From Leucoraja ocellata (lineage: Eukaryota), in contig JAWMAR010000392.1 in NCBI GenBank assembly GCA_036785375.1, positions 1,488,001 through 1,552,000 of the forward strand: a DNA stretch of 64,000 nt, read 5' to 3'. The notes below the pieces were generated by a model. That model did no database searches. It saw only the letters and a program-made list of their open reading frames with translations, and had not been told where the DNA came from. The first letter of the stretch is position 1; every line of letters starts with the position of its first letter. Shown piece by piece: positions 3,713 through 64,000 of the stretch. The position numbers were made by a program, and so were the translations under genes.

Positions 3713-3738
3713 TAGTCCCAGTTGTAGCAGTGGTGTTT

Positions 3739-5765: not shown

Positions 5766-5799
5766 GAAGGCTGGCCTGTGTCATGGCCTAAAAAAGACT

Positions 5800-10124: not shown

Positions 10125-10366
10125 AGTTTATGGGAGTGACAGGAATGGCGGGTGTCCCTAACTTGCCTTTCTGTTATACCGGCAACTGATCTGCGGATTC
10201 CTGGTAGAGCAACACTGGCCAAGACATGCAAGCTATCCACATCCGTTGGTTTTAGTCAGCCACTAATGCATCTGCAGCTGTCATTAAGGGCGATATCAAC
10301 TTTTTTCGCATGAGACGATCTCTCCCAAACAGGACAAGCATACTCTGTTGCAAAGTCGCACCACCA
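10125..10366 (-). mobile_element. Vingi/Ingi-type LINE fragment inside Penelope
   Basis: Minus-strand translation KVDIALNDSCRCISG*LKPTDVDSLHVLASVALPGIRR resembles the post-RT region of Vingi LINEs. Confidence 0.55.
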
Positions 10367-11561
10367 TCATCTATTGTATCTACCTAGAAACGGTAGGGAG
10401 ATGTCGGAGATGGTCCAAGTGAATTTAAGTGCAGGATGGAAATTAGTGTTGAAGTTGAAGTCAGTGAGTTCTGCATGGGTGCAGTCGTCAATGTAACAGA
10501 GGTAAAGTTTGGGAATAGGGCCAGTGCACACCTGGAACAGGGATTGTTCGACGTACCCTACAAAGAGGCAGGCATAGCTAGGGCCCATGTGAGTGCCCAT
10601 GGGAGCAGTCGAAGGAGAAGTTGTTGAGCGTAAGGACCAGGTCTGCTAGGCGTAGAAGGAAATTGAATGGTTCAGCGGTTGAGGAAGAAAGGGAGGGCTT
10701 TAAGACCCTCCTGGTGGGGGTGGAAGTGTAGAATGACTGGACATCCATAGTAAAGGTGAGGGAGTGGGGGTCTGCAAAATGGAAGTCATTGAGGAGACGA
10801 AGAGCATGTGAGGTGTCTTGGACATAGGTAGGGAGGGATTGGACTGGGTTATGCAGTTGAGTTATGTGGAAATTAATTTGGTGGGACATGAACAAGCAGA
10901 AACAATGGGTCTGCCAGGACAGTTCTGTTTGTGGATTTGGGGAGATGATAAAATTGGGCCATGCGGGGCTGGAGAACGATAAGGTTGGAGGCTTTAGACG
11001 GCAGAGAGCCGGAAGTGATGAAATCAGTAATGGTGCTTCAGATTAAGGCCTGGAGCTCGGCTGTGCGGTGATGGTCCAAGGACAAGTAGCAGGAGGTGGG
11101 TGAAAGTTGTCGCCTGGTCTCAATTTGGTCGAGGTCAGCGTGCCAGACTACCACGGCACCTCCCTTGTTGGCGGGTTTGATTAACCTGTTGGGGTTGCCA
11201 CAGAGTGAGCGGAGGGCTGTATGTTCGGGGGGGGGGGGAGATTAGAGTGAATAAGGGTGGTGGAAAACTCGAGGCGGTTGATGTCTCGCCGGCATGTGGA
11301 AACGAAAAGTTCTAAAGAAGGTAGAGGGCCATCTGGGAGAATCTAACAGGAGGGGGTCCGTTGGAGACGGGAGAAGGGGTCATCATTGGCTGATGAGGAC
11401 TCCTTCCCATAGAAAAAGGCCCGGAGGCGATGGAAGAAGAGCTCTACATCGTGGCTGACCCGGAACTCATTGAGGTGGGGGCGGAGGGGAACAAAGGTGA
11501 GGCCTCTGCTGAGGACAGACCGTTCCATATCAGAAAGGGGGAGGTCAGGGGGGATGGTCAA

Positions 11562-28955: not shown

Positions 28956-29155
28956 NNNNNNNNNNNNNNNNNNNNNNNNNNNNNNNNNNNNNNNNNNNNN
29001 NNNNNNNNNNNNNNNNNNNNNNNNNNNNNNNNNNNNNNNNNNNNNNNNNNNNNNNNNNNNNNNNNNNNNNNNNNNNNNNNNNNNNNNNNNNNNNNNNNNN
29101 NNNNNNNNNNNNNNNNNNNNNNNNNNNNNNNNNNNNNNNNNNNNNNNNNNNNNNN
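28956..29155. other. Assembly gap (200 N)
   Basis: Run of N; true length unknown. Confidence 0.99.
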
Positions 29156-29164: not shown

Positions 29165-29630
29165 AGGATTGGGATGGAGGGGATTGGGATGGAGGGGATT
29201 GGGATGGAGGGGAGTGGGATGGAGGGGATTGGGATGGAGGGGATTGGGATGGAGGGGAGTGGGATGGAGGGGTTTGGGATGGAGGGGATTGGGACGCAGG
29301 GGTTTGGGATGGAGGGGAGTGGGATGCAGGGGTTTGGGATGGAGGGGTTTGGGATGGAGGGGATTGGGATGGAGGGGAGTGGGATGGAGGGGTTTGGGAT
29401 GGAGGGGATTGGGATGGAGGGGAGTGGGATGGAGGGGAGTGGGATGGAGGGGTTTGGGATGGAGGGGAGTGGGATGGAGGGGAGTGGGATGGAGGGGTTT
29501 GGGATGGAGGGGAGTGGGATGGAGGGGTTTGGGATGGAGGGGTTTGGGATGGAGGGGAGTGGGATGGAGGGGATTGGGATGGAGGGGATTGGGATGGAGG
29601 GGTTTGGGATGGAGGGGTTTGGGATGGAGT
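29165..29630 (+). repeat. 15-bp G-rich minisatellite GGGATGGAGGGG(ATT/AGT/TTT), about 31 units
   Basis: Visible tandem array that produces spurious open frames on both strands. Confidence 0.97.
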
Positions 29631-29759
29631 GGAGTGGCAGGGTAGGGATGGCAGGGAGTGGCAGGGTAGGGAGTGAGATGGAGGGTTCAATGCTGTAAGA
29701 ATGTGGGACAGGGGAGTGGGGTGTAGGCAGTTGTGTAAAGGTGAGTGGATAGAATGGGA

Positions 29760-30147: not shown

Positions 30148-30223
30148 ATGGAAAGCTGTAACGTAGCTGTATCACTCCTGCTCGCCGTCTTGTCTCTCTG
30201 CTCTGTGTCGGGAGACCACGCAG
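30148..30223 (+). CDS. MHC class I-like heavy chain, exon 1 (signal peptide)
   Basis: Strong Kozak context ccaagATGG. Encodes MESCNVAVSLLLAVLSLCSVSGDHA plus 1 nt, a hydrophobic leader. Donor cag|gtaag, phase 1, joins in frame to the alpha1 exon. Lies at the end of a CpG-rich unique region. Confidence 0.8.
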
Positions 30224-34644: not shown

Positions 34645-35275
34645 TTTAAGAAGGAACTGCAGATGCTGGAAAATCAAAGGTACACAAAAATGCTGGAGAA
34701 ACTCGGCGGGTGCAGCAGCATCTATGGAGCGAAGGAAATAGGCAACGTTTCGGGCCGAAACCCTTCTTCAGACTGATGGGGGTAGAAGAAAGGAAAAAGG
34801 AGGAGGAGGAGCCCGAGGGCTGAGGAAGGGGAGGAGACAGCAAGGGCTAACAAAATTGGGAGAATTCAATGTTCATGCCCCCAGGATGCAGACTCCCCAA
34901 GCGGAATATGAGGTGCTGTTCCTCCAATTTCCGGTGTTGCTCGCTCTGGCCATGGAGGAGACCCAGGACAGAGATGTCGGATGGGGAATGGGAGGGGGAG
35001 TTGAAGTGCTGAGCCACCGGGAGGTCAGGTAGGTTCATCAGGGCCAAGCGGAGGTGTTCGACAAAACGATCACCCAGCCTCCGCTTGGTCTCACCGATGT
35101 AGATCAGCTGACATCTAGAGCAGCAGATGCAGTAGATGAGGTTGGAGGAGATGCAGGTGAACCTCTGTCGCACCTGGAACGACTGCTTGGGTCCTTGAAT
35201 GTAGTCGAGGGGGGATGTAAAGGGACAAGTGTTGCATCTCTTGCGGTTGCAAGGGAAAGTGCCCGGGGAGGGAGT
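34645..35275 (-). mobile_element. Penelope 3' fragment (GIY-YIG endonuclease plus terminal repeat)
   Basis: ORF 34847-35173 NLIYCICCSRCQLIYIGETKRRLGDRFVEH...EQHLIFRLGSLHPGGMN. Confidence 0.9.
34744..34773 (-). ncRNA. Minimal type I hammerhead-ribozyme-like motif in the Penelope terminal repeat
   Basis: Minus strand gtCTGAAGAagggt-ttcg-gcccGAAAcgtt: CUGANGA core, stem II with UUCG loop, GAAA and palindromic AACGTT. Stem I is weak. Confidence 0.6.
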
Positions 35276-35877
35276 CGTTTTCCGAGGGGAGGTGGGTGTT
35301 TATTCTGGGATGGTGTCTGCAGGTTGCAGGTGCGTTCATTCTGCCAGAGGAGGTAGTTGATGCAGGAACAACAACATATAAAAGGCATTTGGATAGGAAC
35401 GTTGGTGAGACCACATTTAGAGTATTGTGTTCAGTTCCGGGCACCATGTTATAGGAAAGATATTGTCAAGCTTGAAAGGGTTCAGAGCAGATTTACGAGG
35501 ATGTTGCCAGGACTAGAGGGCCTGAGCTATATGGAGTGGTTGAGTAGGCTGGGTCTCTATTCCTTGGAGGGCAGGAGGATGAGGGGTAATCTTATAGAGG
35601 TGTACAAAATCATGAGGGGAATAGATCAGGTAGATGCACAGTCTCTTGCCCAGAGTAGAGGAATCGAGGACCAGAGGACTTAGGTTCGAGGTGAAGGGGA
35701 AAAGATTTAATAGGAAACTGTAAAGAAGTGATAATGACACACTGTAACTTTACTTCATTTTATTCATACTGTATCTTATACAAAGAGCACTAGCTGGTAT
35801 GTGGTCTGTCACGGAAACTAGAGAGCGATATGTGGGTGGGGAGGTTGTAATTATACTTGTGATATGGGGAGTGGTTA

Positions 35878-41022: not shown

Positions 41023-41271
41023 ATTCCCACAGCTTGATATATTTCGCCACCTCCTCCCTCAGTGTCCCTGACCTGCCAGACTTCGCCAGGGTTGGGATGT
41101 TGGATGATCTGCAGATAGATTACTACGACAACTCCCTCGAAGAAGTGGTACCCAGGCAGCAGTGGATTGCGAGCGGCTTCATGGCTGAGTACTGGGCACG
41201 GCAGAAGATGATCGCAGACATCATTCACACGATTGTGTCTAAACAATTGGGAACACATGCCCAATTGCTCG
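41023..41271 (+). CDS. MHC class I-like heavy chain, exon 2 (alpha1 domain)
   Basis: Pyrimidine tract and cag acceptor at 41020-41022; donor g|gtatgt; phase 1/1. Encodes DSHSLIYFATSSLSVPDLPDFARVGMLDDLQIDYYDNSLEEVVPRQQWIASGFMAEYWARQKMIADIIHTIVSKQLGTHAQLL, matching class I alpha1 motifs (SHSLxYF, PxFxxVGxLDDxQIxYYD, PRxxW, EYW). Confidence 0.93.
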
Positions 41272-44951: not shown

Positions 44952-45221
44952 GTATCACCTACTTCCAGACGATTTGGGGCTGCACACAGTCTGAAAATAT
45001 GAACCATCTGTTTGTAAAGTTTAACATCCAAGACCTCGGTGCGATTGAGTGTGATCTGGTCACAGTGAACTGTTCCGCCACTGGTATCTTTATAATCTTG
45101 AACGATCCAAGCACCTTACAGCCTTTCGTTAATAATGCTGCGGTTCAAGCAGTGAACAACAGCTGCATTCCAGACTTACAGGAAGCTCTTCAGCTTGGTG
45201 AGGCGGCACTCGAGAGGAGAG
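44952..45221 (+). CDS. MHC class I-like heavy chain, exon 3 (alpha2 domain)
   Basis: Acceptor tttacag, donor g|gtaggt, 270 nt, phase 1/1. Encodes GITYFQTIWGCTQSENMNHLFVKFNIQDLGAIECDLVTVNCSATGIFIILNDPSTLQPFVNNAAVQAVNNSCIPDLQEALQLGEAALERR. Retains QxxxGC (C101), C164 and the terminal GxxxLERR. Confidence 0.88.
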
Positions 45222-48380: not shown

Positions 48381-48650
48381 TTGTTCCAGGGGTGACAGTG
48401 TTGAAAAGGGACAAAGGCGAGGGGCTCCGGTGTGTCATCACTCCCTTTTACCCCCGCACCATCAACGCCACTTGGCTGAGGAATGGGCAGGCCGTCTCCA
48501 ATGCCATAAACAAGATCCTTCTACCAAACCACGATGACACGTACAGGATGGAACTGCTCATCGAGCTCCACGGCCAAGATCCAAAGATGTACAGCTGTCA
48601 GGTCCAGCACAGCAGCCTGCCAGAGACGCTGACAATGACACTGAGGGGAG
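48381..48650 (+). CDS. MHC class I-like heavy chain, exon 4 (alpha3, Ig C1-set)
   Basis: Acceptor tcttccccag, donor g|gtaagt, 270 nt, phase 1/1. Encodes VVPGVTVLKRDKGEGLRCVITPFYPRTINATWLRNG...LLPNHDDTY...YSCQVQHSSLPETLTMTLRG with C1-set hallmarks (C-x4-FYP, W, PNxDxTY, YxCxVxHxxL). Confidence 0.95.
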
Positions 48651-48873
48651 GTAAGTCACTGTATGTTGTCTACAATCTGTTTCACTCCTGCTGGTAGAAA
48701 GGAGATGAGGAGTTTCTTTCGTTGGAGGTTCATTGACACAGAAGGCTGTGGAGGCCGCTAATGGATATTTTTAAGGAATTATCGCTTCCTCTGAAGAAGG
48801 ATGTGCTGGCGTTGGTGAGGGGCCAGAGGAGGATTACGAGAATGAGTCTAGGAATGATTGGGTTCACATATGA

Positions 48874-49305
48874 TAGAAACATGGAAACAAAGAAAATAGG
48901 CGCCACTCTCTGTGTGAAAAATGTTTTTCTCATCTCGGTCCTAGAGGATTTCCCCTTTATCCTTAAACTGTGACCCCTTGTCCTGGACTTCCCCAACATC
49001 GGGAACAATCTTCCTGCATCTAGCCTGTCCAACCCCTTAAGAATTTTGTAAGTTTCTATAAGATTCCCCCTCAATCTTCTAAATTCTAGCGAGTACAAGC
49101 CGAGTCTATCCAGTCTTTCTTCATATGAAAGTCCTGACATCCCAGGAATCGGTCTGGTGAATCTTCTCTGCACTCCCTCTATGGCAAGAATGTCTTTCCC
49201 CAGATTAGGAGACCAAAACTGTACACAATATTCCAGGTGTGGTCTCACCAAGACCCTGTACAACTGCAGTAGAACCTCCCTGCTCCTATACTCAAATCCT
49301 TTTGC
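48874..49305 (-). mobile_element. CR1 family A, internally deleted (intron 4)
   Basis: ORF 48730-49263. Confidence 0.85.
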
Positions 49306-49907
49306 TGATTGTTTTAAGGCACTGGGCCTATACTCGCTGGAGTTTAGATGGATGAGGGGGGACCTCGTTGAAACTTACTGAATTATGAAAGGTCTGGATA
49401 GAGTGAATGTGGAGAGGATGTTTCCACTATTGGGAGAGTTGAGGATCAGAGCCCATACCCTCAGAATAAAAGGACGTGCCTTTAGGAAGGAGATGAGGAG
49501 GAATTACTTTAGTCAGAGGGTGGTGAATCTATGGAATTCATTGCCACAAACGGCTGTGGAGGTCGTCAATGGATATTTTTAAGGCGGAGATTGACAGATT
49601 CTTGATCAGTAAGAGTATCAGGGGTTATGGGGAGAAGGCAGGAGAATGGGGTTGAGAGGGAAAGATAGATTAGCCATGATTGAATGACAGAGTTGACTTG
49701 GTGGGCCATTGGCCTAATTCTGCTCCTCGGAACTTATGAGCTTAGTGTGAACGGGACCGATAGTCGGCATGGACTCGGAGCATCTTTTGTGGAAATCTTC
49801 TTCGCTGCTGTGTGCTGGGAAGGCTGGCTCCATCCTGGGGGCGGAGTTGGATTCGTGGGAGGAGGTCTTGGTGGGATGTTCCTCAAACTGCGAAGCATCT
49901 TGTACAG

Positions 49908-50667
49908 TAACCATATAACCATATAACAATTACAGCACGGAAACAGGCCATCTCGGCCCTACAAGTCCATGCCCAACAAATTTTTTTCCCCTTAGTCCCA
50001 CCTGCCTGCACTCATACCATAACCCTCCATTCCCTTCTCATCCATATGCCTATCCAATTTATTTTTAAATGATACCAATGAACATGCCTCCACCACTTCC
50101 ACTGGAAGCTCATTCCACACCGCCACCACTCTCTGAGTAAAGAAGTTCCCCCTCATATTACCCCTAAACTTCTGTCCCTTAATTCTGAAGTCATGTCCTC
50201 TTGTTTGAATCTTCCCTATTCTCAAAGGGAAAAGCTTGTCCTCATCAACTCTGTCTATCCCTCTCATCATTTTAAAGACCTCTATCAGGTCCCCCCTTAA
50301 CCTTCTGCGCTCCAGAGAATAAAGACCTAACTTATTCAACCAATCTCTGTAACTTAGTTGTTGAAACCCAGGCAACATTCTAGTAAATCTCCTCTGTACT
50401 CTCTCTATTTTGTTGACATCCTTCCTATAATTGGGCGACCAAAATTGTACACCATACTCCAGATTTGGTCTCACCAATGCCTTGTACAATTTTAACATTA
50501 CATCCCAGCTTCTATACTCAATGCTCTGATTTATAAAGGCTAGCATACCAAAAGCTTTCTTTACCACCCTATCTATATGAGATTCCACCTTCAAGGAACT
50601 ATGCACGGTTATACCCAGATCCCTCTGTTCAACTGTATTCTTCAATTCCCTACCATTTACCATGTAC
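49908..50667 (-). mobile_element. CR1 family B (intron 4)
   Basis: ORF 49992-50690 and tail. Confidence 0.92.
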
Positions 50668-50981
50668 AGCTCACCCACTCCATGACACACTGGTCAACCT
50701 GAGAAGTACCTTCAGCAACAGACTAGTTCCACCAAGATGCAGTACAGATCGCCACAGATCCTTTTTTTCCTGTGGCTTCCAAACCATAACTCCTGCCCTT
50801 TCTGTCGTATAGTAGACTGACTCCCCTCCCCCCCTCCCCCCTCCATCCATCCCCAAATGTTTGAACATCTCCAATCCTTTCCACTCGTCACCATGTTTCA
50901 TGTGTCTTGTTGTGCTTTATGACTGTTGTCATTCCAATTTCCTTCCTGGGATAAATTAAACTTCTATCGTATTGTATGGCA

Positions 50982-51489
50982 TTAACCATATAACCATATA
51001 ACAATTACAGCACGGAAACAGGCCATCTCGACCCTTCTAGTCCGTGCCGAACACATAATCTCCCCTAGTCCCATATACCTGCGCTCAGACCATAACCCTC
51101 CATTCCCTTCCCATCCATATAACTATCCAATTTATTTTTAAATGATAAAAACGAACCTGCCTCCACCACCTTCACTGGAAGCTCATTCCACACAGCTACC
51201 ACTCTCTGAGTAATGAAGTTCCCCCTCATGTTACCCCTAAACTTCAGTCCCTTAATTCTCATGTCATGTCCCCTTGTTTGAATCTTCCCTACTCTCAGTG
51301 GGAAAAGCTTTTCCACGTCAACTCTGTCTATCCCTCTCATCATTTTAAAAACCTCTATCAAGTCCCCCCTTAACCTTCTGCGCTCCAAAGAATAAAGCCC
51401 TAACTTGTTCAACCTTTCTCTGTTGAAGTTGCTGAACCCAGGCAACATTCTAGTAAATCTCCTCTGTACTCTCTCTATTTTGTTGACAA
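50982..51489 (-). mobile_element. CR1 family B (intron 4)
   Basis: ORF 51065-51448 and tail. Confidence 0.9.
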
Positions 51490-51948
51490 ATTAAACTCCC
51501 CTGCCTGCATGTGAACCACATAGCTCCATTTTCTGCATATCCATGTGCTGATACAAAAGCCTCCTAAATGCCTCTATCACATCTGCCTCACCACCACAGC
51601 CCCTGGCAGTGCATTCCAGGCACCCACCACTTCCCTATGTTTCAAAAAATCCATGCCCCGCACATCTTCTTTAAAGCCTGTCCCTCTCACCTTAAAGCTA
51701 TGCCCTCTAGTCTTTGTCATTTCCATGCTGGGAAAAAACAAATTCTCACTCTCCATCAAATCTAGATCTGTCATAATTTTAGAAACTGCTATCATGCCTA
51801 CACACAGCCTCTGACGTTCCAGACCAGAGAAAACAATCCAAGCTTGTCCAACCTCCCATTACAGTTAATACCCTCGAATCCAGGAACATTATGGCACATG
51901 AAACATGAGGGTAATCTAGTTTAGAGATACAGCACGGAAACAGGCCCT

Positions 51949-52448
51949 TAACATATAACCATATAACAATTACAGCACGGAAACAGGCCATCTCGGCCCT
52001 ACAAGTCCATGCCGAATAAATTTTTTTCCCCTTAGTCCCACCTGCCTGCACTCGTACCATAACCCTCCATTCCCTTCTCATCCATATGCCTATCCAATTT
52101 ATTTTTAAATGATACCAATGAACCTGCCTCCACCACTTCCACTGGGTGCTCATTCCACACCGCTACCACTCTCTGAGTAAAGAAGTTCCCCCTCATATTA
52201 CCCCTAAACTTCTGTCCCTTAATTCTGAAGTCATGTCCTCTTGTTTGAATCTTCCTTATTCTCAAAGGGAAAAGCTTGTCCACATCAACTCTGTCTATCC
52301 CTCTCATCATTTTAAAAACCTCTATCGTCCCCCTTAACCTTCTGCGCTCCAGAGAATAAAGACCTAACTTATTCAACCTATCTCTGTAACTTAGTTGTTG
52401 AAACCCAGGCAACATTCTAGTAAATCTCCTCTGTACTCTCTCTATTTT
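51949..52448 (-). mobile_element. CR1 family B (intron 4)
   Basis: ORF2 C-terminus and tail. Confidence 0.9.
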
Positions 52449-53702
52449 TTTATTTTTTTTATTTTGTTTCCCTTTGTCCCACGCAGACCAGCGATCCCCG
52501 CACATTAACACTATCCTACACCCACTAGGGACAATGTTTACATTTACCAAGCCAATTAACCTACATGTACGTGTTTGGAATGTGGGAGGAAACCGAAGAT
52601 CTTGGAGAAAACATACGCAGGTCACGGGGAGAACGTACAAACTCTGTATAGACAGCCACCTTAATCGGGATCGAACCCAAGACTCTGGTGCTGCATTCGT
52701 TGTAAGGCAGCAACTCTACCGCTGCACCACTGCAACTTTGTTGAAAGGGCTGGTATTCAGCAGACGGAGTCTCCTGTAGGAAGGAACTGCAGATGCTGGT
52801 TTAAAACAAAGATAGACACAAAAAGCTGCAGGAACTCAGACAGCATCTCTGGAGGGGAAGGAATGCGTGATGTTTTGGGTCGAGACCCTTCTTCAGACGG
52901 AATCTGATGCTTGGCCAAACAGCAGGAAACTAGATGACAAAGGGGAAACCCCCATCTTCAAACAGGATAATGCATTGTGAAATAAAATTTACGTGCTGCT
53001 CCTCAGCCTGGGACTACATTTATTGGGGAGGGGCAGAATGCAATTTACATGGTAGCTCAGTGAGTCCTTTGTTTCATGACATTGACTTTCCTTATAGTCC
53101 CAGCATTAACTTTCCTTTGAGCTCTCAGTCAAATATACAGCCCAAAAATAAGAAATATTTTTGACACCAATCTGAGGAAGTGTCTCGACCTGAAACATCG
53201 CCATTCCTTTTCCCCTGGAGGTGCTGCCTGACCCGCTGAGTTACTCTAGCGTTTTGTGTCTATCTTCAGTGTAAACCAGCATCTGCAGTTAATTCTTACA
53301 CTTAACATTTTTAATTGATTGACAGATACAGCATGCAAACAGGCCCTTTGCCTACCGAGTCCATGCTGACCACTCATTCCTCCAATCCTCGGACTATTTT
53401 TAATCAGACTTTATCATGCATCAAAAAGTTTTTCATTCACTGTTTCCCAGACAATATACTAAACATCACTAAGCTAAGCTCAACTAAACTCACTCACGTT
53501 TGTTCCATGTTATCCCATTTTCTCATCCACTCCCTACACACTGGGTGGGGGCAATCCCGCATGTCTTTGGGATGTTCGACGAAACCGGAGCACCCGGAGG
53601 AACCACACTCAGTCACAGGGAGAATGTGCAAACTCCACGCAGATGGCACCAGGTATCAGGATAGAAACCGGGTCTCAGGTGCAGTGAGACAGCAGCTCCA
53701 CC

Positions 53703-53831
53703 CAGTAGCGGACTGGGTCTAAAAATATTGGTTGCCAGGAGACAAAGGGGGCCCACTTCATCAGGGGCCCACTTGATATAGGGGGCCCACTTGCCATCGG
53801 GCAAGCTGACACCCTGGCCAGTCCGCCACTG
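53703..53831. mobile_element. 129-bp hAT-type MITE
   Basis: TIRs cagtagcggactgg / ccagtccgccactg and a perfect 8-bp TSD gctccacc at 53695-53702 and 53832-53839. Confidence 0.9.
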
Positions 53832-53871
53832 GCTCCACCCCATTACCCTGCTATAGGAAGGGTGTCAATTA

Positions 53872-54922
53872 ACATAGAAACATAGAAATTAGGTGCAGGA
53901 GTAGGCCATTCGGCCCTTCGAGCCTGCACCGCCATTCAATATGATCATGGCTGATCATCCAACTCAGTATCCCGTACCTGCCTTCTCTCCATACCCCCTG
54001 ATCCCCTTAGCCACAAGGGCCACATCTAACTCCCTCTTAAATATAGCCAATGAACTGGCCTCAACTACCCTCTGTGGCAGAGAGTTCCAGAGATTCACCA
54101 CTCTCTGCGTGAAAAAAGTTCTTCTCATCTCGGTTTTAAAGGATTTCCCCTTTATCCTTAAGCTGTGACCCCTTGTCCTGGACTTCCCTAACATCGAGAA
54201 CAATCTTCCTGCATCTAGCCTGTCCAACCCCTTAAGAATTTTGTAAGTTTCTATAAGATCCCCTCTCAATCTTCTAAATTCTAGAGAGTATAAACCAAGT
54301 CTATCCAGTCTTTCTTCATAAGACAGTCCTGACATCCCAGGAATCAGTCTGGTGAACCGTCTCTGCACTCCCTCTATGGCAATAATGTCCTTCCTCAGAT
54401 TTGGAGACCAAAATTGTACGCAATACTCCAGGTGTGGTCTCACCAAGACCCTGTACAACTGCAGTAGAACCTCTCTGCTCCTATACTCAAATCCTTTTGC
54501 AATGAAAGCTAACATACCATTCGCTTTATTTACTGCCTGCTGCACCTGCATGCCTACCTTCAATGACTGGTGTACCATGACACCCAGGTCTCGCTGCATC
54601 TCCCCCTTTCCCAATCGGCCACCATTTAGATAATAGTCTGCTTTCCTGTTTTTGCCACCAAAATGGATAACCTCACATTTATCCACATTATACTGCATCT
54701 GCCAAACATTTGCCCACTCACCCAGCCTATCCAAGTCACCCTGCAGTCTCCTAGCATCCTCCTCACAGCTAACACTGCCCCCCAGCTTAGTGTCATCCGC
54801 AAACTTGGAGATATTGCCTTCAATTCCCTCATCCAGATCATTAATATATATTGTAAATAGCTGGGGTCCCAATATATATTAATGATCTGGATGAGGGAAT
54901 TGAAGGCAATATCTCCAAGTTT
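53872..54922 (-). mobile_element. CR1 family A with 5' fold-back
   Basis: ORF 53964-54872 (FADD motif) uninterrupted, with an inverted duplication at the 5' junction. Confidence 0.93.
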
Positions 54923-55567
54923 AAGCTGGAATGTGTACTGAGAAGATTTATGAGGATGTTGCTAGGACTTTGGGGCCAATTATAGGGAGAGATGGGGCAG
55001 GTTAGGACTTTATTCCTTAGAGCGCAGGACTCAGAGGGGTGATCTTACAGCAGTTTATAAGATTATGAGGGGAATAGATAAGGCAAATGCATAATCTGTT
55101 AACCAGAGTAAGGGAATCAAGAGCCAATGGTACCAAGGTGAGAAAGATTTAATAGAATTTGAGGAGTAACTTTTTCACACAGGGGACGGTAGGTATATGG
55201 AAAGAACTACCGGAAGAGGTAGTGGGGGCAGATACCATAACAGATCTTTGGATAGGAAAGGGTTATGCGCCAAACCTGGGCAGGTGGGACGGATGTAGAT
55301 GGGACATCTTGGTTGGCAAGGGCAAGTTGGGCTGAAGGGCCTGTTTCCATGCTCTATGACTATGACTCTACCAGCTGCAACAGAGCCAAATTAGAAATCG
55401 ATAACTTTCTCAAAACTGGTATGCTAAATGAATTTTCCCATTATATTAGTTCATTCTGGAGCCCCAAAATTGTGTTTAAAGATCCCATTGTATTTTCCTG
55501 GTGTTACCTACATAGATCAACAATGTTCTTCCTTACACATGTGGTGGTACCTGTTCAACAGATTTCA

Positions 55568-56229
55568 AGGGTGGTAAAGAAAGCTTTTGGTATGCTAGCC
55601 TTTATAAATCAGAACATTGAGTATAGAAGTTGGGATGTAATGTTAAAATTGTACAAGGCTTGGTGAGACCAAATCTGGAATATGGTGTACAATTTTGGTC
55701 GCCCAATTATAGGAAGGATGTCAACAAAATAGAGAGAGTACAGAGGAGATTTACTAGAATGTTGCCTGGGTTTCAACAACTAAGTTACAGAGATAGGTTG
55801 AATAAGTTAGGTCTTTATTCTCTGGAGCACAGAAGGTTAAGGGGGGACTTGATAGAGGTTTTTAAAATGATGAGAGGGATAGACAGAGTTGACGTGGAAA
55901 AGCTTTTCCCACTGAGAGTAGGGAAGATTCAAACAAGGGGACATGACATGAGAATTAAGGGACTGAAGTTTAGGGGTAACATGAGGGGGAACTTCTTTAC
56001 TCAGAGAGTGGTAGCTGTGTGGAATGAGCTTCCAGTGAAGGTGGTGGAGGCAGGTTCGTTTTTATCATTTAAAAATAAATTGGATAGTTATATGGATGGG
56101 AAGGGAATGGAGGGTTATGGTCTGAGCGCAGGTATATGGGACTAGGGGAGATTATGTGTTCGGCACGGACTTGAAGGGTCGAGATGGCCTGTTTCCGTGC
56201 TGTAATTGTTATATGGTTATATGGTATAT
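55568..56229 (+). mobile_element. CR1 family B (intron 4)
   Basis: ORF 55630-56145 and tail. Confidence 0.92.
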
Positions 56230-56577
56230 GCTGCAAACGTTCAGAAGGTTAAGTTTCATTTGTGGTAAGTGAAACAGAGTAACGAGATCAAATATCCTTC
56301 ATCAGTGTTCTGATGCTAGTTGCAAAACCAGTTTGACTGTTTTACTGGAACTGATGCAACTTGAAAGCTATTTTTGTTCAAAGAATGGAAGTGTTCATGA
56401 CGTAAGAATGGAAGATGCGTTGGTTGGTATGCAGTAAGACTTAGAGATACAATGTGGGCATTGTTACAACATCATTAGTCTCGGATGGTCTGTGTTAACA
56501 CTTGAGCAACCTTGCGTAGAAAGGAATTTCAGATAGATGCTGGTTTAAATCGAAGACAGACACAAAGTGCTGGAGTA

Positions 56578-57029
56578 ACATAGAAACATAGAAATTAGGT
56601 GCAGGAGTAGGCCATTCGGCCCTTCGAGCCTGCACCGCCATTTAATATGATCATGGCTGATCATCCAACTCAGTATCCCGTACCTGCCTTCTCTCCATAC
56701 CCTCTGATCCCCTTGGCCACAAGGGCCACATCTAACTCCCTCTTAAATATAGCCAATGAACTGGCCTCAACTACCCTCTGTGGCAGAGAGTTCCAGAGAT
56801 TCACCACTCTCTGTGTGAAAAACGTTCTCCTCATCTCGGTTTTAAAGGATTTCCCCCTTATCCTTAAGCTGTGACCCCTTGTCCTGGACTTCTCCAACAT
56901 CGGGAACAATCTTCCTGCATCTAGCCTGTCCAACCCCTTAAGAATTTTGTAAGTTTCTATAAGATCCCCTCTCAATCTCCTAAATTCTAGAGAGTATAAA
57001 CCAAGTCTATCCAGTCTTTCTTCATAAGA
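56578..57029 (-). mobile_element. CR1 family A (intron 4)
   Basis: ORF 56670-56975 and tail. Confidence 0.92.
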
Positions 57030-57414
57030 CCATCTCTGGAGAGAATGGGTGATGTTTCGGGTCGAGACCTTTCTTCAGCAACCTTGCTTTGAGAACAGTC
57101 CAACATGTATAGCAGACCGTGTTTATGTCCACAGTTACAGTCATAGAACCATAATGTGTGGAAACAGGCCCTTCGGCCCAGCTTGCCCATGCCAGCCAAG
57201 GTGCACCAACAACTCCATCCTCACCTGCCATGTTTGGTCCATATACCTCTAAACATTTCCTGTCCACGTACCTATCCAAATGTTTTTAAAAGCTGTGATA
57301 ATTTCTGCTAACTACCTCATCCGGCGGCTCATTTCATACCCACCACCTGCTGTCGGGAAAAGTTGCCCCTCAAATTGCTATTAAATCTTTCCCCTCTCAC
57401 CTTAAACCTATCTC

Positions 57415-58290
57415 CTCGCGGTGCGACTCTCGTCAGCAGCGGCCTCTGCAGCCCGTCTGCGTTTTAATTATTTTTTGTCTATGTTTTATGTAGTTTTTGT
57501 TATTTTTGTTGGGGTATGTGTGTGGGGGGGGGGGGGGGGGGGTGGGGGTGGGGGTGGGGTGGGAGGGAGGGGGTAACTTTTAATCTCTCCCTGCACGGGA
57601 GACCCGACCTTTTCTTTGTCGGGTCTCCGTTGTCGTTGGGGCTGCAACGAGGAGCGGCCTCCAACAGGAAGACTGGGGGCTCTGGTGCCGACGACTCACC
57701 TCACCGTCGCGGAGCTGGCCGAGTCCAGAGCGGGTGGAGCGGTGGTGGAGCGCTGCTGCTGCTGCGGCCCGACCTCCGGAGATTCGGAGGCTGCAACTGC
57801 GGGTCTGGCGGACGGCGGCACCGGGAGCCCGCGGGTCCCTGGAGGGAGACTGCTTTTCAGGGCTCCCGCAACGGCGACTTCTCCCGCCCGAGTTGCGGGG
57901 TCGAAGAGCTCCTGGAACGGGGCCTCACAGCACCGCTCCGCGCGGCTTGGAATGGCCGCGGGACTCTGCGAGCGCACGCCGGGGGCTCTAACATCAAGAA
58001 CCCGGTGTGCGACCTTGCATCACACGGCGTGGCTTAAATGGCCGCGGGACAATCGCCATCGCCAGCCGGGGGCTTTGACTTTGACTCTGTCATCGGGGGG
58101 GGGGGGGGGGGGGGGAGTGCAGTGGAGAGATAAGTTTTTTTGGCCTTCCATCACAGCGATGTGATGGATGTTTATGTAAATTATGTTGTGTCTTGGGTCT
58201 AGTTGTTTGTAATGTATGGCTGCAGAAACGTCATTTCGTTTGGACCTCAAGGGGTCCAAATGACAAATAAATTGTATCTTGTATCTGTAT
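57415..58290 (+). mobile_element. Non-autonomous GC-rich retroelement with a LINE-type tail
   Basis: GC-rich head, T-rich tract, G-runs and CpG-rich body, ending aaataaattgtatcttgtatctgtat. Confidence 0.55.
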
Positions 58291-58804
58291 TTTGCTTCCC
58301 CTACTGTGGGTAAAAGACTGTGCATCTTCACTTCCTGAAGCCCATCACAATCTCCTTGTTTGCAGTCAACACAAGAAACTCCAAAAGCTGGGGATGTTGA
58401 GGAAAACAGAAAGGGCTGTACAAGCTCAGGCGGTCAGGTTGCCACTGTGGAGGGAAATGGAACAGGTGGCGTTTGGGGTCGGACACAAGGAAGTGCAGCG
58501 GAATCCTGAACAAAACACAATGTGCTGGAGTAACTCAATGGACTAGGCAGCACCTGTGAAGGGAATGGACTCAAAGAACTTCAGATGCTGTAATCCTGAG
58601 CATGAGATTCGACTCGAAGCGTTGCCTGTCCATTTCCCTCCACAGATGCTGCCTGACCCACTGGGTTCCTCCTCTACTCATTTCATAAGTAACAGGAGCA
58701 GAATTAGGCCATTCAGCCCATCAAGTCTACTCCACCTTTCAATCATGGCTGATCTATATCTCCCTCCTAACCCCATTCTACTGCCTTCGCCCCATAACCC
58801 CTGA

Positions 58805-59563
58805 TAGAAACATAGAAACATAGAAATTAGGTGCAGGAGTAGGCCATTCGGCCCTTCGAGCCTGCACCGCCATTCAATATGATCATGGCTGATCATCCAA
58901 CTCAGTATCCGTACCTGCCTTCTCTCCATACCCCCTGATCCCCTTAGCCACAAGGGCCACATCTAACTCCCTCTTAAATATAGCCAATGAACTGGCCTCA
59001 ACTACCCTCTGTGGCAGAGAGTTCCAGAGATTCACCACTCTCTGCGTGAAAAAAGTTCTTCTCATCTCGGTTTTAAAGGATTTCCCCTTTATCCTTAAGC
59101 TGTGACCCCTTGTCCTGGACTTCCCTAACATCGGGAACAATCTTCCTGCATCTAGCCTGTCCAACCCCTTAAGAATTTTGTAAGTTTCTATAAGATCCCC
59201 TCTCAATCTTCTAAATTCTAGAGAGTATAAACCAAGTCTATCCAGTCTTTCTTCATAAGACAGTCCTGACATCCCAGGAATCAGTCTGGTGAACCGTCTC
59301 TGCACTCCCTCTATGGCAATAATGTCCTTCCTCAGATTAGGAGACCAAACTGTACGCAATACTCCAGGTGGGTCTCACCAAGACCCTGTACAACTGCAGT
59401 AGACCTCTCTGCTCCTATACTCAAATCCTTTTGCAATGAAAGCTAACATACCATTCGCTTTCTTTACTGCCTTGCTGCACCTGCATGCCTACCTTCAATG
59501 ACTGGTGTACCATGACACCCAGGTCTCGCTGCATCTCCCCCTTTTCCAATCGGCCACCATTTA
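58805..59563 (-). mobile_element. CR1 family A (intron 4)
   Basis: ORF 58883-59359 and tail. Confidence 0.92.
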
Positions 59564-60169
59564 GCCTTACTAATCAAGAATCTATCTCTGTCTTACAAAT
59601 ATCCACTGACTTGGCCTCCACAGCCGTATGTGGCAAAGAATTCCACAGATTTGCCACCTATCTGAATAAAGAAATTCCTTCTCATCTCCTTCCTAAAAGA
59701 ACGTCCTTTAATTCTGAGGCTATGACCTCCTCTGTCGTGGGGTAGACTGAGACTGACTCTCACTTCCCACCCTCTCCCCTCCCCAATCTTTACACATCCC
59801 CAATCCTTTCCACTCGTCACTTTAATTTCATGGTTCATATATTTTGTGTTTTTACGACTGTGGGCAGATCAATTTCCTTCCTCGGATGAATAAAGTTCTA
59901 TCGTGTCTTATCGTTCACCCATCTTCGAGCACTGCGTACATAGCTCAGCATTTCAAGTACACATTTAGCCAGCTTAAATGTGGTGCGTGTTTCTAGCTCC
60001 ATCACACTCTACCAGCAATGATTTCTAGACACCTCCCACCTCTGTGTGGAAAATGTTTCAAACTCTCCTCCAAATCCTACCGATCACATCCAATCTTTCA
60101 TTTTGTTTTGACTGCTCTGTTAAGGACAGTAGGTCTTCCCTATTTACTCTGTTCAGGTCCCTTATTAAA

Positions 60170-60986
60170 TAAATGTGGATAAATGTGAGGTTATCCATTT
60201 TGGTGGCAAAAACGGGAAAGCAGACTATTATCTAAATGGTGGCCGATTGGGAAAGGGGGAGATGCAGCGAGACCTGGGTGTCATGGTACACCAGTCATTG
60301 AAAGTAGGCATGCAGGTGCAGCAGGCAGTAAAGAAAGCGAATGGTATGTTAGCTTTCATTGCAAAAGGATTTGAGTATAGGAAGCAGGGAGGTTCTACTG
60401 CAGTTGTACAGGGTCTTGGGTGAGACCACACCTGGAGTATTGCGTACAGTTTTGGTCTCCAAATCTGAGGAAGGACATTATTGCCATAGAGGGAGTGCAG
60501 AGATGGTTCACCAGACTGATTCCTGGGATGTCAGGACTGTCTTATGAAGAAAGACTGGATAGACTTGGTTTATACTCTCTAGAATTTAGAAGATTGAGAA
60601 GGGGATCTTATAGAAACTTACAAAATTCTTAAGGGGTTGGACAGGCTAGATGCAGGAAGATTGTTCCCGATGTTAGGGAAGTCCAGGACAAGGGGTCACA
60701 GTTAAGGATAAGGGAAATCCTTTAAAACCGAGATGAGAAGAACTTTTTTCACACAGAGAGTGGTGAATCTCTGGAACTCTCTGCCACAGAGGGTAGTTGA
60801 GGCCAGTTCATTGGCTATATTTAAGAGGGAGTTAGATATGGCCCTTGTGGCTAAGGGGATCAGGGGGTATGGAGAGAAGGCAGGTACGGGATACTGAGTT
60901 GGATGATCAGCCATGATCATATTGAATGGCGGTGCAGGCTCGAAGGGCCGAATGGCCTACTCCTGCACCTAATTTCTATGTTTCTA
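60170..60986 (+). mobile_element. CR1 family A (intron 4)
   Basis: DKCEVIHFG through to the tail, with several 1-bp indels. Confidence 0.92.
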
Positions 60987-61023
60987 AACCAACCCTCAGC
61001 TTCCTACTTTCCTAAGAGAGAGG

Positions 61024-61290
61024 AACGGTGGTGCAGTGGTAGAGTTACTGCCTTACAGTGCCCGAGACCCAGGTTCGATCCCGACTGTGGGAGTTGGCTG
61101 TATGGAGTTTGTATGTTCTCCCCGTGACCGCATGGGTTTTCTCCTAGATCTTCGGTTTCCTCCCACACTCCTAAGACGTAAAAGTTTGTACGTTAATTGG
61201 CTGGTGTAAGTGTAAAATTGTAAATTGGCTCTCGTGTATGTGTAGGATAGCGTTAATGTGCGGAATTGGCTGTATCTTTAAACTAAAAAT
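61024..61290 (+). mobile_element. tRNA-derived V-SINE (HE1-like); further copies near 22565, 23500, 32827, 37700, 38595, 41300, 52470 and 53310
   Basis: Pol III A box tggtgcagtgg and B box ggttcgatccc, V-domain-like ggagtttgtatgttctccccgtgacc...ggtttcctcccacactcc, and an (ACTAA)n-type tail. Confidence 0.75.
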
Positions 61291-61663
61291 AACCTAAAGA
61301 ACCACAGCCTATTCAAATATTCCTGACATGGGCAATGGGTCATCTTGGTCAGCAAGAACAAATTGGGCCAAAGGGCCTTTTTCTGTGCTGGATGACTATG
61401 GCTAATTTACTCAGCCTCTGTAAATCTCACCTGCATCATTGGCAGGGTCCTGGAGTGTATTATAGAGCAGAGTAATCTTGTACAGGGTTCCATGACAGTG
61501 GCATCAAAGGTATTTAGGGCGGTATAGAAGGCTATTGGTACATTGGTCTTCATCAGACATGGTATTGAGGATAGAAGTTGAGACGTTACATTTGTACAAG
61601 ACGTTGGTGAGGCCACAGTTGGAGTATTGTGTTCAGTTTTAGTCATCCTGCCATAACAAGGAT

Positions 61664-62129
61664 ATAACCATATAAACCATATAACAATTACAGCACGGAA
61701 ACAGGCCATCTCGACCCTTCTAGTCCGTGCCGAACACATAATCTCCCCTAGTCCCATATACCTGCGCTCAGACCATAACCTCCATTCCCTTCCCATCCAT
61801 ATAACTATCCAATTTATTTTTAAATGATAAAAACGAACCTGCCTCCACCACCTTCACTGGAAGCTCATTCCACACAGCTACCACTCTCTGAGTAAAGAAG
61901 TTCCCCCTCATGTTACCCCTAAACTTCAGTCCCTTAATTCTCATGTCATGTCCCCTTGTTTGAATCTTCCCTACTCTCAGTGGGAAAAGCTTTTCCACGT
62001 CAACTCTGTCTATCCCTCTCATCATTTTAAAAACCTCTATTAGGTCCCCCCTTAACCTTCTGCGCTCCAAAGAATAAAGCCCTAACTTGTTCAACCTTTC
62101 TCTGTAACTTAGTTGCTGAAACCCAGGCA
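61664..62129 (-). mobile_element. CR1 family B (intron 4)
   Basis: ORF 61768-62133 and tail. Confidence 0.9.
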
Positions 62130-62608
62130 CCATGTCATTAAGATGGAAAGAGTGCAGAGAAGATAAACAAGGGTGTTGCTAGGACTCAACAGACTGAGCA
62201 TAGGGATGTCTGAATTAGGGTCTTGACCCGAAGCATCACTTATTCCTTTTCTCCAGAGATGCTGCCTGACCCGCGATGTTAGTCCAGCTTTTTACCTGTA
62301 TATTTTGAGCATCGGGAGAGGTTAGATAGGCCAGAACTTCTTAGAGCACAGGAGGCTGAGGGGTGATCTTTTCAAGGTGACTAACTCATGAGGGGAATAG
62401 ATAGGGTGAATGCCCAGTCTTTTATCCAGGATAGGGGAATCAAGAACCAGAGGGTATATGTTTAAGATGAGTGGGACAAGATGTAATAGGAAGCTGAGGG
62501 AGTTTGAGGGTGGTGGGTATATGGAACGAAATGCCAGAGGAGGTAGTTGAGGCAGGTACTATAACAGCATTTAAGATACTTGGACTGATACATGGACAAA
62601 TAGGATTA

Positions 62609-62897
62609 GACATGACTTCAGAATTAAGGGACAGAAGTTTAGGGGTAACATGAGGGGGAACTTCTTTACTCAGAGAGTGGTAGCTGTGTGGAATGAGCTT
62701 CCAGTGGAAGTGGTGGAGGCAGGTTCGTTGGTATCATTTAAAAATAAATTGGATAGGCATATGGATGAGAAGGGAATGGAGGGTTATGGTATGAGTGCAG
62801 GCAGGTGGGACTAAGGGAAGAAAGTTGTTCGGCACGGACTTGTAGGGCCGAGATGGCCTGTTTCCGTGCTGTTATTGTTATATGGTTATATGGTTAT
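62609..62897 (+). mobile_element. CR1 family B (intron 4)
   Basis: ORF2 end and tail. Confidence 0.88.
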
Positions 62898-63287
62898 AAG
62901 ATGGGGCATCATGGTTGGCAAGAATGAATTTTCACTGTACCTCAGTACACGTGACAATAAACCACACTAACTATACCAAAGAGTTGGGAAAGTTAGCTGT
63001 ATGACCCTAAGACATATAAAGAGGGTGGCAAATCTGAGGAATGTTTTGCCACACAAGGCTGTGTAGGCCGTCAGTGGATATATTTAAGGCAGATAAATAG
63101 ATTCTTGATTAGTACAGGTTTCAGAGGTTATGGGGAGAAGGCAGGAGAATTGGGTTAGGAGGGAGAGATAGAGCAACTATGGCAGAGTAGACTTGATGGG
63201 CCGAATGGCCTAATTCTGCTCTTATCGCTTATGATCTTATGATCTATGTTCTTCGCCTAATATCTACTGTATTTGCTTGCTGGGCAG

Positions 63288-63373
63288 GTGTTGGTGGGCC
63301 ACGTGATGCATTTGGAGCTAGTTACATGCTGGTGCTCGTGGCTACGCTTGTGATGATCATTGGAACATGGTAG
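63288..63373 (+). CDS. MHC class I-like heavy chain, exon 5 (linker plus hydrophobic C-terminus and stop)
   Basis: Acceptor ...ttgcttgctgggcag. Phase-1 reading gives GVGGPRDAFGASYMLVLVATLVMIIGTW*(TAG 63371-63373). It sits in one of the few non-repeat islands downstream of alpha3, and the exon continues to a consensus donor ag|gtgagt at 63414/63415. An intervening small exon cannot be excluded. Confidence 0.7.
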
Positions 63374-63509
63374 AGAAGAGCAGCAATGAGGAGAGAGGTC
63401 AGGTGTGATAACAGGTGAGTGAGCGCATAGACTCCTTCACTAAGACTCGATGATGTGACAAACTCTCTTCTCATTTATGATCCAATCTATTCTCATTTCT
63501 CTTTTCCAG

Positions 63510-63585
63510 ATGAACATCTGGTCCTCATCCGAATACTGGATGAAGCTTCTACCTGTTACAATGATGAGTGGCTGTATACCTCATC
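63510..63585 (+). other. Probable terminal (3'UTR) exon start of the class I-like gene
   Basis: Strong acceptor ttctcatttctcttttccag ending at 63509, pairing with donor 63415 (95-nt intron). The 3' end is not determinable; no polyA signal was identified. Confidence 0.45.
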
Positions 63586-63645
63586 AAGAGGGGTCTCCAC
63601 CCGAAATGTCGCCTATTCATTTTCTCCGGAGATGTTGTCTGACTT

Positions 63646-64000
63646 ATAACCATATAACCATATAACAATTACAGCACGGAAACAGGCCATCTCGACCCTT
63701 CTAGTCCGTGCCGAACACATAATCTCCTTGAAGGTGGAATCTCATATAGATAGGGTGGTAAAGAAAGCTTTTGGTATGCTAGCCTTTATAAATCAGAGCA
63801 TTGAGTATAGAAGCTGGGATGTAATGTTAAAATTGTACAAGGCATTGGTGAGACCAAATCTGGAGTATGGTGTACAATTTTGGTCGCCCAATTATAGGAA
63901 GGATGTCAACAAAATAGAGAGAGTACAGAGGAGATTTACTAGAATGTTGCCTGGGTTTCAACAACTAAGTTACAGAGATAGGTTGAATAAGTTAGGTCTT
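63646..64000. mobile_element. CR1 family B: minus-strand tail fused to a plus-strand body, running off the window
   Basis: Tail 63646-63728 (-) joined at tcc to ORF2 sequence (+) from about 63727. Confidence 0.85.

What the first reader, a model, noticed from the sequence alone, without database searches (positions are those of the whole stretch)
63371..63513. Fossil (or read-through) cytoplasmic tail behind the stop codon
Seen: past TAG the frame continues RRAAMRREVRCDN to a consensus donor (ag|gtgagt, 63414/5). Splicing to the strong acceptor at 63509 adds R and then TGA. The basic RR right after a 21-residue hydrophobic run looks like a stop-transfer signal. The TAG lies only 41 nt upstream of that junction, inside the 50-55-nt zone that generally escapes NMD. 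Inference: a single nonsense change may have converted a type I membrane protein into a tail-less or GPI form. Alternatives are an allele-specific stop or translational read-through giving two anchoring modes.
Basis: partly seen in the sequence, partly recalled or inferred. Interest (0 to 1): 0.7.

Follow-up and report, generated by a model that had tools for sequence, protein, structure and literature searches.

The report
Ancient GPI-type end of skate UFA
The stop codon is not a recent mutation: this skate immune gene (UFA, a CD1-like MHC class I molecule) ends at the same point in many sharks and rays, in a signal predicted to swap its oily tail for a lipid (GPI) anchor, so the sequence behind the stop is likely just untranslated RNA.

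Summary
The sequence facts are right: TAG at 63371-63373, 13 open codons, a donor at 63415, a strong acceptor at 63509, 41 nt from stop to junction. The reading is mostly wrong. The exon is the last coding exon of an intact five-exon, 316-residue skate gene of UFA, the CD1-like nonclassical MHC class I lineage (44% identical to nurse shark UFA, PDB 8GM8). 25 of 30 shark and ray relatives, from 11 named genera, stop at the homologous position directly after the hydrophobic run, and none of the 30 has a membrane helix with a basic tail. A recent or allele-specific nonsense change is thus refuted. The conserved end has the anatomy of a GPI-attachment signal (small residues at G289, polar spacer, 13-20 hydrophobic residues; 25 of 30 against 0 of 5 teleost controls, by my own rule). 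Read-through is unsupported: UAG-A context, no RNA structure. The 95-nt intron looks real and may be a relic of the ancestral tail intron, but its phase (2) and the skate-only W weaken the fossil peptide. GPI anchoring is predicted, not shown; I found no paper stating it for UFA.

The parts
30148..30223 (+). Coding part of the leader (signal peptide) exon, ATG at 30148, phase-1 donor
   Evidence: tblastn and exact 6-mer matches to P0001/P0002; sequence; CAG|GTAAGA
41023..41271 (+). Alpha-1 exon (249 nt)
   Evidence: Pfam MHC_I E 2.6e-09; best PDB match 8GM8; AG/GT ends, phase 1
44952..45221 (+). Alpha-2 exon (270 nt)
   Evidence: 99% to P0001, 87% to Amblyraja P0002; AG/GT ends, phase 1
48381..48650 (+). 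Alpha-3 exon (270 nt, C1-set Ig domain); ends in Gly, not the Trp seen in other class I lineages
   Evidence: Pfam C1-set E 2.7e-13
63288..63414 (+). Anchor exon (127 nt): 83 nt coding, TAG, 41 nt of 3' UTR
   Evidence: 28 of 28 residues identical to the end of P0001; splice sites
63288..63295 (+). Predicted GPI attachment region: omega = G289 (codon split across the alpha-3/anchor junction), V290, G291
   Evidence: Rule-based scan, only candidate; G-G-V-G or similar small residues in relatives
63296..63316 (+). Polar spacer, residues 292-298 (omega+3 to omega+9)
   Evidence: Mean Kyte-Doolittle -0.83
63317..63370 (+). Hydrophobic C-terminal tail, residues 299-316, predicted to be cut off when GPI is added
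   Evidence: Mean Kyte-Doolittle 1.98, no charge
63371..63373 (+). TAG stop, at the homologous position across sharks and rays
   Evidence: 25 of 30 relatives end here
63374..63414 (+). 41 purine-rich nt behind the stop; likely 3' UTR
   Evidence: 77% purine; no stable fold, z -0.06; no Rfam family at gathering score
63415..63509 (+). Predicted 95-nt 3' UTR intron, phase 2 relative to the coding frame
   Evidence: Only strong donor+acceptor pair in the window; splicing itself not observed
63510..63637 (+). Single-copy part of the predicted last exon (3' UTR); LINE-type repeat from 63638
   Evidence: Self-BLAST of the window; no AATAAA/ATTAAA before the window ends

Best explanation
The TAG is the normal, lineage-wide end of a skate UFA gene (a CD1-like nonclassical MHC class I heavy chain), and the residues before it are predicted to be a GPI-attachment signal, so the mature protein would sit on the cell surface by a glycolipid anchor and the 41 nt behind the stop are likely 3' UTR. 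Shown: intact five-exon 316-residue frame; closest solved relative is UFA; same end point in sharks and rays; small-residue cluster, polar spacer and terminal hydrophobic run. Inferred: the signal peptide takes the chain into the ER; the GPI transamidase cuts after G289 (or a neighbouring small residue), removes about 27 residues and adds GPI; the 95-nt intron is spliced; the mRNA escapes NMD because the junction is only 41 nt from the stop. Inferred origin: a stop arose in an ancestral class I transmembrane exon before sharks and rays split, as happened repeatedly in CEACAM genes, leaving the old downstream intron in the UTR.
For: Gene model without internal stops, four phase-1 introns. 44% identity and top rank to 8GM8, titled shark nonclassical MHC class I UFA, against 29-30% to UGA and 26% to the other shark class I structure 6LUP; clade with nurse shark UFA, support 100, against teleost outgroups. 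25 of 30 elasmobranch relatives end after the hydrophobic run; 21 of these 25 have Pro exactly 16 residues from the end, the 2 skates have Tyr there, and 2 lamniform sharks are 2 residues shorter. The same 25 pass a GPI-anatomy rule based on the region layout in PMC2571997, 0 of 5 teleost class I controls pass, and these carry basic residues behind a membrane helix. In the 23 non-skate tail-less proteins the unbroken apolar run is only 10-15 residues, short for a membrane helix. P0001 comes from a contig of 1,336 nt although the gene spans 33 kb, so a spliced tail-less mRNA exists in a near-identical skate gene. Precedents: GPI-anchored MILL, Qa-2, MICA*008; stop-in-TM-exon origin of GPI CEACAMs.
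Against: No dedicated GPI predictor and no experiment: the rule and its cut-offs were mine, set after seeing the sequences, and it had to allow Val at omega+1. The linker before omega is short: the model puts a beta strand at 282-285, inside the 11 residues that are usually unstructured. The skate run of 21 uncharged residues could itself span a membrane. 5 of 30 relatives lack the signal (a Narcine isoform with a polar end, the crystal construct, two hypothetical-protein models, one short form). Most relatives are RefSeq gene predictions, which stop at a stop codon whatever the ribosome does, so they cannot exclude read-through. P0024 and P0025 are splice forms, and ray paralogues are not independent. 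Splicing of 63415-63509 was not observed.
Confidence: 0.78

Rival explanations
1. The protein ends here in all species but is not GPI-linked: it is held by the uncleaved hydrophobic end (tail-less membrane protein) or is secreted.
For: 21 uncharged residues in skates; short linker before the proposed omega site; pig CEACAM62 is described as spanning the membrane with a stop near the end of its TM exon (PMC13212111).
Against: The apolar run is 10-15 residues in the 23 non-skate tail-less relatives and begins after a conserved Pro; no basic stop-transfer residues; small residues replace the usual alpha-3 Trp exactly where an omega site is needed.
Confidence: 0.13
2. Programmed read-through of the TAG gives a second, transmembrane form with a short basic tail, so the gene has two anchoring modes.
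For: In this skate the product would be a plausible type I protein: 21 uncharged residues, then RR and 5 Arg in 13 codons; window-wide this has about 0.8% frequency. The read-through form loses the GPI anatomy, so it would differ in function.
Against: Context is UGG-UAG-AGA: no C at +4, none of the UAG-CAAUYA, UGA-CUAG or UAG-G-plus-pseudoknot motifs; A is the weakest +4 base in most data sets of PMC4615788. No downstream fold (z -0.06). With base composition held, the basic residues are only 3-10% events. In most relatives the hydrophobic run is too short for the read-through product to span a membrane.
Confidence: 0.05
3. The 41 nt still preserve a readable fossil of the ancestral stop-transfer and tail peptide (compatible with GPI anchoring; differs only on what the UTR shows).
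For: Exon length 127 nt and a real-looking intron just behind the stop fit a converted TM exon. W-stop-RR resembles the W-RRRR exit of the eel controls. The phase-1 frame of the next exon is open for 46 codons (5.7% of 3,000 shuffles).
Against: The W is skate-specific: last residue is M 13, V 7, I 3, L 1 (Amblyraja), W 1 of 25. The donor is phase 2, not 1. The stop predates the shark-ray split (roughly 270-300 million years, recalled), too long for an unselected frame to survive. The 45-codon frame matches no Pfam family and not the Narcine alternative end.
Confidence: 0.2
4. A recent single nonsense mutation, or an allele-specific stop, truncated a type I membrane protein in this animal.
For: Only the local look of the sequence.
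Against: Same end point in a second skate sequence (7 differences in 316), Amblyraja (37 differences) and 10 further named genera of rays and sharks; 0 of 30 lineage members has a helix plus basic tail. Lengths within P0001's 42-member cluster could not be listed, so a rare sense allele is not formally excluded.
Confidence: 0.01

Closest known systems
UFA, CD1-like nonclassical MHC class I lineage of elasmobranchs (nurse shark ectodomain, PDB 8GM8; PMC10751288, PMC12562908)
   Same: 44% identity, top sequence and fold match; same clade; alpha-3 ends in a small residue as in the two UFA-labelled sequences of the PMC10751288 supplement.
   Different: The structure and the supplement cover only alpha-1 to alpha-3; the passages I read say nothing about the anchor. 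Skates have Tyr where most members have Pro 16 residues from the end, which makes the run look like a membrane helix.
GPI-anchored mammalian class I-like molecules: MILL1/2, mouse Qa-2, MICA*008
   Same: Class I fold with a GPI anchor instead of TM and tail (PMC6193965, PMC2483932, PMC8118558).
   Different: Unrelated lineages, so an independent origin. MICA*008 is one allele made by a frameshift and uses a non-canonical route; the UFA end is fixed across sharks and rays and looks canonical.
GPI-linked CEACAM5-8 and pig CEACAM60
   Same: GPI signal made from a transmembrane exon by an introduced stop, with degenerate cytoplasmic exons left behind; CEACAM60 confirmed by phospholipase C release (PMC2832619, PMC13212111). 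The likely model for the origin here.
   Different: Ig-superfamily adhesion proteins; those events are recent enough to align with CEACAM1, whereas no tail-bearing UFA was found for comparison.
CD1 (tetrapods)
   Same: UFA is reported as CD1-like and lipid-binding (PMC12562908, as a personal communication).
   Different: CD1 proteins are type I membrane proteins, most with a Tyr-based endosomal sorting motif in the tail (recalled); UFA has no tail at all. Orthology is stated to be hard to assess.
Programmed stop-codon read-through genes (UGA-CUAG and related contexts)
   Same: A stop followed by a short open frame.
   Different: None of the context motifs in PMC4615788 is present; no structure.

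Membership tests
UFA lineage | Closer to nurse shark UFA than to other shark class I lineages | tested here: met
   8GM8 44%, E 2.7e-72; UGA 9CH4 29-30%, E 5.7e-36; 6LUP 26%, E 6.3e-23, with the Amblyraja orthologue as query
UFA lineage | Falls in one clade with labelled UFA | tested here: met
   28-row elasmobranch clade, SH-aLRT 100, quick tree of 33 rows; outgroups were teleost only, no UAA, UBA, UDA, UEA or UGA rows
UFA lineage | Alpha-3 ends in S/G rather than W (my reading of the labelled sequences, not a published criterion) | tested here: met
   S and G in the 2 UFA rows, W in the UCA, UGA, sturgeon and Xenopus rows shown; no W in 30 of 30 members
UFA lineage | Maps in the MHC-Ib cluster with UDA and UEA | tested here: inconclusive
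   No second class I gene in the window; the long ORFs I identified are transposon-derived
UFA lineage | Binds lipid in the groove | not testable with these tools
   Reported for shark UFA/UGA only as a personal communication
GPI-anchored protein | N-terminal signal peptide | tested here: met
   Leader exon 30148-30223 with hydrophobic core, conserved in relatives; judged by eye, no predictor
GPI-anchored protein | Small residues at omega-1 to omega+2, omega in C/D/G/N/S | tested here: met
   G288-G289-V290-G291; 25 of 30 members have a candidate; Val at omega+1 is less than ideal
GPI-anchored protein | Polar spacer omega+3 to omega+9 | tested here: met
   Mean KD -0.83 here; -1.67 to 0.06 in relatives
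GPI-anchored protein | Hydrophobic tail from omega+10 to the very end, no cytoplasmic part | tested here: met
   18 residues, KD 1.98; 13-20 residues in relatives; 0 of 5 teleost controls
GPI-anchored protein | About 11 unstructured residues before omega-1 | tested here: inconclusive
   Predicted strand at 282-285, low confidence from 289 on
GPI-anchored protein | Release by PI-PLC, dependence on GPI synthesis | not testable with these tools
   Needs an experiment
Programmed read-through | Leaky stop context | tested here: not met
   UGG-UAG-AGA against the motifs in PMC4615788
Programmed read-through | Stimulatory RNA structure behind the stop | tested here: not met
   63371-63414 folds at -2.2 kcal/mol, z -0.06, 88 of 200 shuffles as good; longer-range structure in the spliced RNA not tested
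Programmed read-through | Extension conserved as coding sequence across species | not testable with these tools
   No elasmobranch DNA collection available
Intact fossil of a class I TM/tail junction | Phase-1 intron after the TM exon (the rule is recalled) | tested here: not met
   Donor 63415 is phase 2; the four coding introns are phase 1; the only phase-1 GT (63405) is a weak site
Intact fossil of a class I TM/tail junction | Basic residues after the hydrophobic run beyond chance | tested here: inconclusive
   0.8% window-wide, 3-10% with composition held, chosen after the fact

The most novel reading that the evidence does not exclude
The CD1-like lipid-binding class I molecule of sharks and rays has been GPI-anchored since before the two groups split. 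It would be the oldest GPI-linked MHC class I lineage, would sample lipids without CD1's tail-based endosomal sorting (raft trafficking, phospholipase shedding), and would keep the old tail intron in its 3' UTR as a trace of the conversion; this is not stated in any paper I could reach.
Probability: 0.45. Interest if true: 0.6.

Novelty: new member of a known kind. Interest (0 to 1): 0.38.

Why it matters
UFA is being proposed as the cartilaginous-fish counterpart of CD1. How such a molecule is anchored decides which compartments it visits and so which lipids it can load and show to T cells. A GPI anchor fixed across sharks and rays would mean that the earliest known lipid-presenting class I molecule traffics unlike tetrapod CD1 and could be shed by phospholipases. 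It is cheap to test. The narrower claim in the finding, a recent nonsense change or read-through, is not borne out and deserves little interest.

Tried and rejected
Recent or allele-specific stop: rejected on 25 of 30 relatives. W before the stop as a relic of the W-RRRR membrane exit: rejected, W is in 1 of 25. Alternative donors 63398, 63403, 63405, 63419: all lie behind the stop and are weaker. Skipping the anchor exon to the 63510 exon gives a 46-codon open frame, but it has no Pfam match and no alignment to the Narcine alternative end. Rfam on 63150-63700: one match at E 0.44, 14.6 bits against a cut-off of 45, taken as chance. ESM Atlas with residues 280-316: scores 0.80 or lower, uninformative on anchoring. 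One further unnamed hit (P0181) was left out too. Tree: 3 short rows dropped (P0024, P0025, P0180); only the quick tree finished. The member list of P0001's 42-sequence cluster could not be obtained, so length variation among close alleles is unchecked. Literature: a search for GPI omega-site terms found nothing; the primary MICA*008 paper is not held, and a later paper was read instead.

Full report
1. The observation. The window shows TAG at 63371-63373 after 21 uncharged residues, then 41 nt reading RRAAMRREVRCDN, a donor CAG|GTGAGT (GT at 63415), and an acceptor ending at 63509; splicing gives R then TGA. The acceptor is strong (18 of 20 pyrimidines, 63 nt without AG; 0.07% of 4,025 YAG sites equal it) and this is the only strong donor+acceptor pair 60-300 nt apart on either strand (cut-offs mine, set after seeing the site). 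The donor motif alone is at chance level (3 seen, 2.6 expected). Thirteen open codons follow 49% of 5,941 stop triplets; open plus two leading basic residues follows 0.8%, or 3.1% of shuffles that keep the 77% purine content. The facts stand; the intron is probably real; the basic peptide is only mildly unusual.

2. The gene. Upstream lie a leader exon (ATG 30148-30223), alpha-1 (41023-41271; Pfam MHC_I), alpha-2 (44952-45221) and alpha-3 (48381-48650; C1-set). With the anchor exon they give 316 residues without internal stops, all four introns in phase 1. The nearest relatives are an unnamed skate protein (P0001, 7 differences; a cluster of 42 sequences; longest contig 1,336 nt, hence a spliced transcript of a 33-kb gene) and an Amblyraja radiata RefSeq protein (P0002, 37 differences). 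With P0002 as query, the closest solved structure by sequence (E 2.7e-72) and fold (44% identity) is 8GM8, titled shark nonclassical MHC class I UFA; UGA (9CH4) is 29-30% and the other shark structure, 6LUP, 26%. A quick tree of 33 rows puts the window's protein with nurse shark UFA in a 28-row elasmobranch clade (support 100) against teleost outgroups only. The supplement of PMC10751288 labels the same nurse shark sequence, and a second one that resembles the ray clade, as UFA. UFA is described as CD1-like and lipid-binding, from unpublished data or personal communication.

3. The decisive test: is the codon sense elsewhere? Three searches gave 30 elasmobranch lineage proteins. 25 of 30 end directly after the hydrophobic run: the unnamed skate and 11 named genera (Amblyraja, Pristis, Mobula, Hemitrygon, Hypanus, Heptranchias, Cetorhinus, Carcharodon, Chiloscyllium, Heterodontus, and one whose name is cut off at 'Pristio', taken as Pristiophorus). 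The position is homologous: 21 of 25 have Pro 16 residues from the end, the two skates Tyr, the two lamniform sharks a 2-residue shortening. The five exceptions are a Narcine isoform X2 with a polar end, the crystal construct, two hypothetical-protein models and one short form; none has a helix plus basic tail, while the 5 teleost controls do. Two of the 25 are alpha-2-skipping splice forms and the ray paralogues are related, so the rows are not independent, but the stop is on both sides of the shark-ray split (about 270-300 million years, recalled). The last residue is M, V, I or L elsewhere and W only here and in P0001, so the likeness of W-stop-RR to the eel W-RRRR exit is coincidence. The Pro-to-Tyr change in skates is what makes the run look like a 21-residue helix; in the 23 other tail-less proteins it is 10-15 residues. 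Limit: most rows are gene predictions, which cannot show read-through, and lengths within P0001's cluster could not be listed.

4. How it most likely works. PMC2571997 describes a GPI signal as small residues at omega-1 to omega+2, a spacer from omega+3 to omega+9 and a hydrophobic tail to the end. A rule of my own built on that layout (omega in G/S/N/D/C/A, omega+2 in G/A/S, polar 7-residue spacer, tail of 10 or more residues with mean KD of 1.5 or more and at most one charge; set after seeing the sequences) gives one site here, G289, and passes 25 of 30 lineage members, 0 of 5 teleost controls, and not the hypothetical read-through form. Alpha-3 of UFA ends in Gly or Ser where the other lineages shown in the supplement have Trp, which supplies omega-1. 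Against: Val at omega+1, and a predicted strand at 282-285 within the usually unstructured linker. Inferred steps: ER entry, cleavage after G289, GPI transfer, surface display with beta-2-microglobulin. The NMD argument (junction under 50-55 nt; rule recalled) is reasonable: no strong donor follows before 64000 (two weak donor-like sites inside the LINE), but no canonical poly(A) signal is in the window, so the transcript end is unknown.

5. Read-through and fossil. The context UGG-UAG-AGA has none of the motifs in PMC4615788, and A is the weakest +4 base in most data sets there; that review also warns that context does not predict everything. The 44 nt from the stop fold no better than shuffles. 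For a fossil, the exon length and the intron fit a converted TM exon, and stops in TM exons made GPI signals repeatedly in CEACAMs. But the donor is phase 2, and an unselected frame should not survive since the shark-ray split. I think it likely (about 0.6) that the intron is a relic and unlikely (about 0.2) that the peptide is a readable fossil. One oddity in favour of a coding past: two of three frames of 63510-63650 are open for 45 codons (0.4% of 3,000 shuffles; 5.7% for the phase-1 frame), found after the fact and without any match.

6. What is known. GPI-anchored class I-like proteins exist in mammals: MILL, Qa-2, MICA*008. Searches for a statement on UFA anchoring found only two papers naming this lineage, PMC10751288 and PMC12562908; 'GPI' occurs 0 times in either main text, and once, as an unrelated gene symbol, in the supplement of the first. 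The library lacks most subscription journals, and the primary UFA structure paper was not found, so its authors may already know this. What I saw of each paper: PMC10751288 passages, section 9 and supplement passages; PMC12562908, PMC2832619, PMC13212111, PMC2571997, PMC4615788, PMC2483932, PMC6193965 and PMC8118558 passages only; other titles as search listings only.

7. Verdict. Observation confirmed; interpretation partly supported. This is a skate member of a known lineage with a conserved, probably unreported, predicted GPI anchor. Interest 0.38 overall; 0.6 if GPI anchoring of the shark and ray CD1-like molecule is confirmed and new.

Noticed in passing
window 63510-63650 (+): Two of three frames of the predicted last exon are open for 45 codons (0.4% of 3,000 shuffles). 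Skipping the anchor exon would read a 46-codon polar end, a possible secreted form; a Narcine isoform X2 (P0012) also has a polar end but no similarity to it.
   Followed up: partly
P0024, P0025 (Hemitrygon, Hypanus): Annotated isoforms X2 lack about 80 residues matching alpha-2 but keep alpha-3 and the GPI-type end.
   Followed up: partly
Relatives: UFA is described as single or low copy, yet Mobula birostris and Hemitrygon akajei each gave 5 distinct full-length proteins, suggesting an expansion in stingrays and devil rays.
   Followed up: no
window 44952-45221 (+): Alpha-2 carries an extra Cys pair (142, 149) besides the usual 119/180, also seen in the labelled UFA sequences; three N-glycosylation sequons at 148, 177 and 227.
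   Followed up: no
window 29166-29637, gap 28956-29155: A 15-nt tandem array (31.5 copies, 91% matches) next to a 200-N assembly gap, about 500 nt upstream of the start codon; a consensus donor at 29738-29746 may mark a 5' UTR exon or be chance.
   Followed up: no
window 2768-6723 (-): Reverse transcriptase ORF (4287-5780) and tyrosine recombinase ORF (2768-3745) in tandem: looks like a DIRS-type retrotransposon (family name recalled).
   Followed up: partly
window 34847-35299 (-): GIY-YIG-like ORF (E 0.0018, below Pfam cut-off), probably a Penelope-type element fragment (name recalled); similar-looking frames near 9908-11042.
   Followed up: partly
window 48651-63287: The 14.6-kb intron before the anchor exon, like the other introns, is filled with LINE-type reverse transcriptase fragments; no second class I gene was found in the 64 kb.
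   Followed up: no
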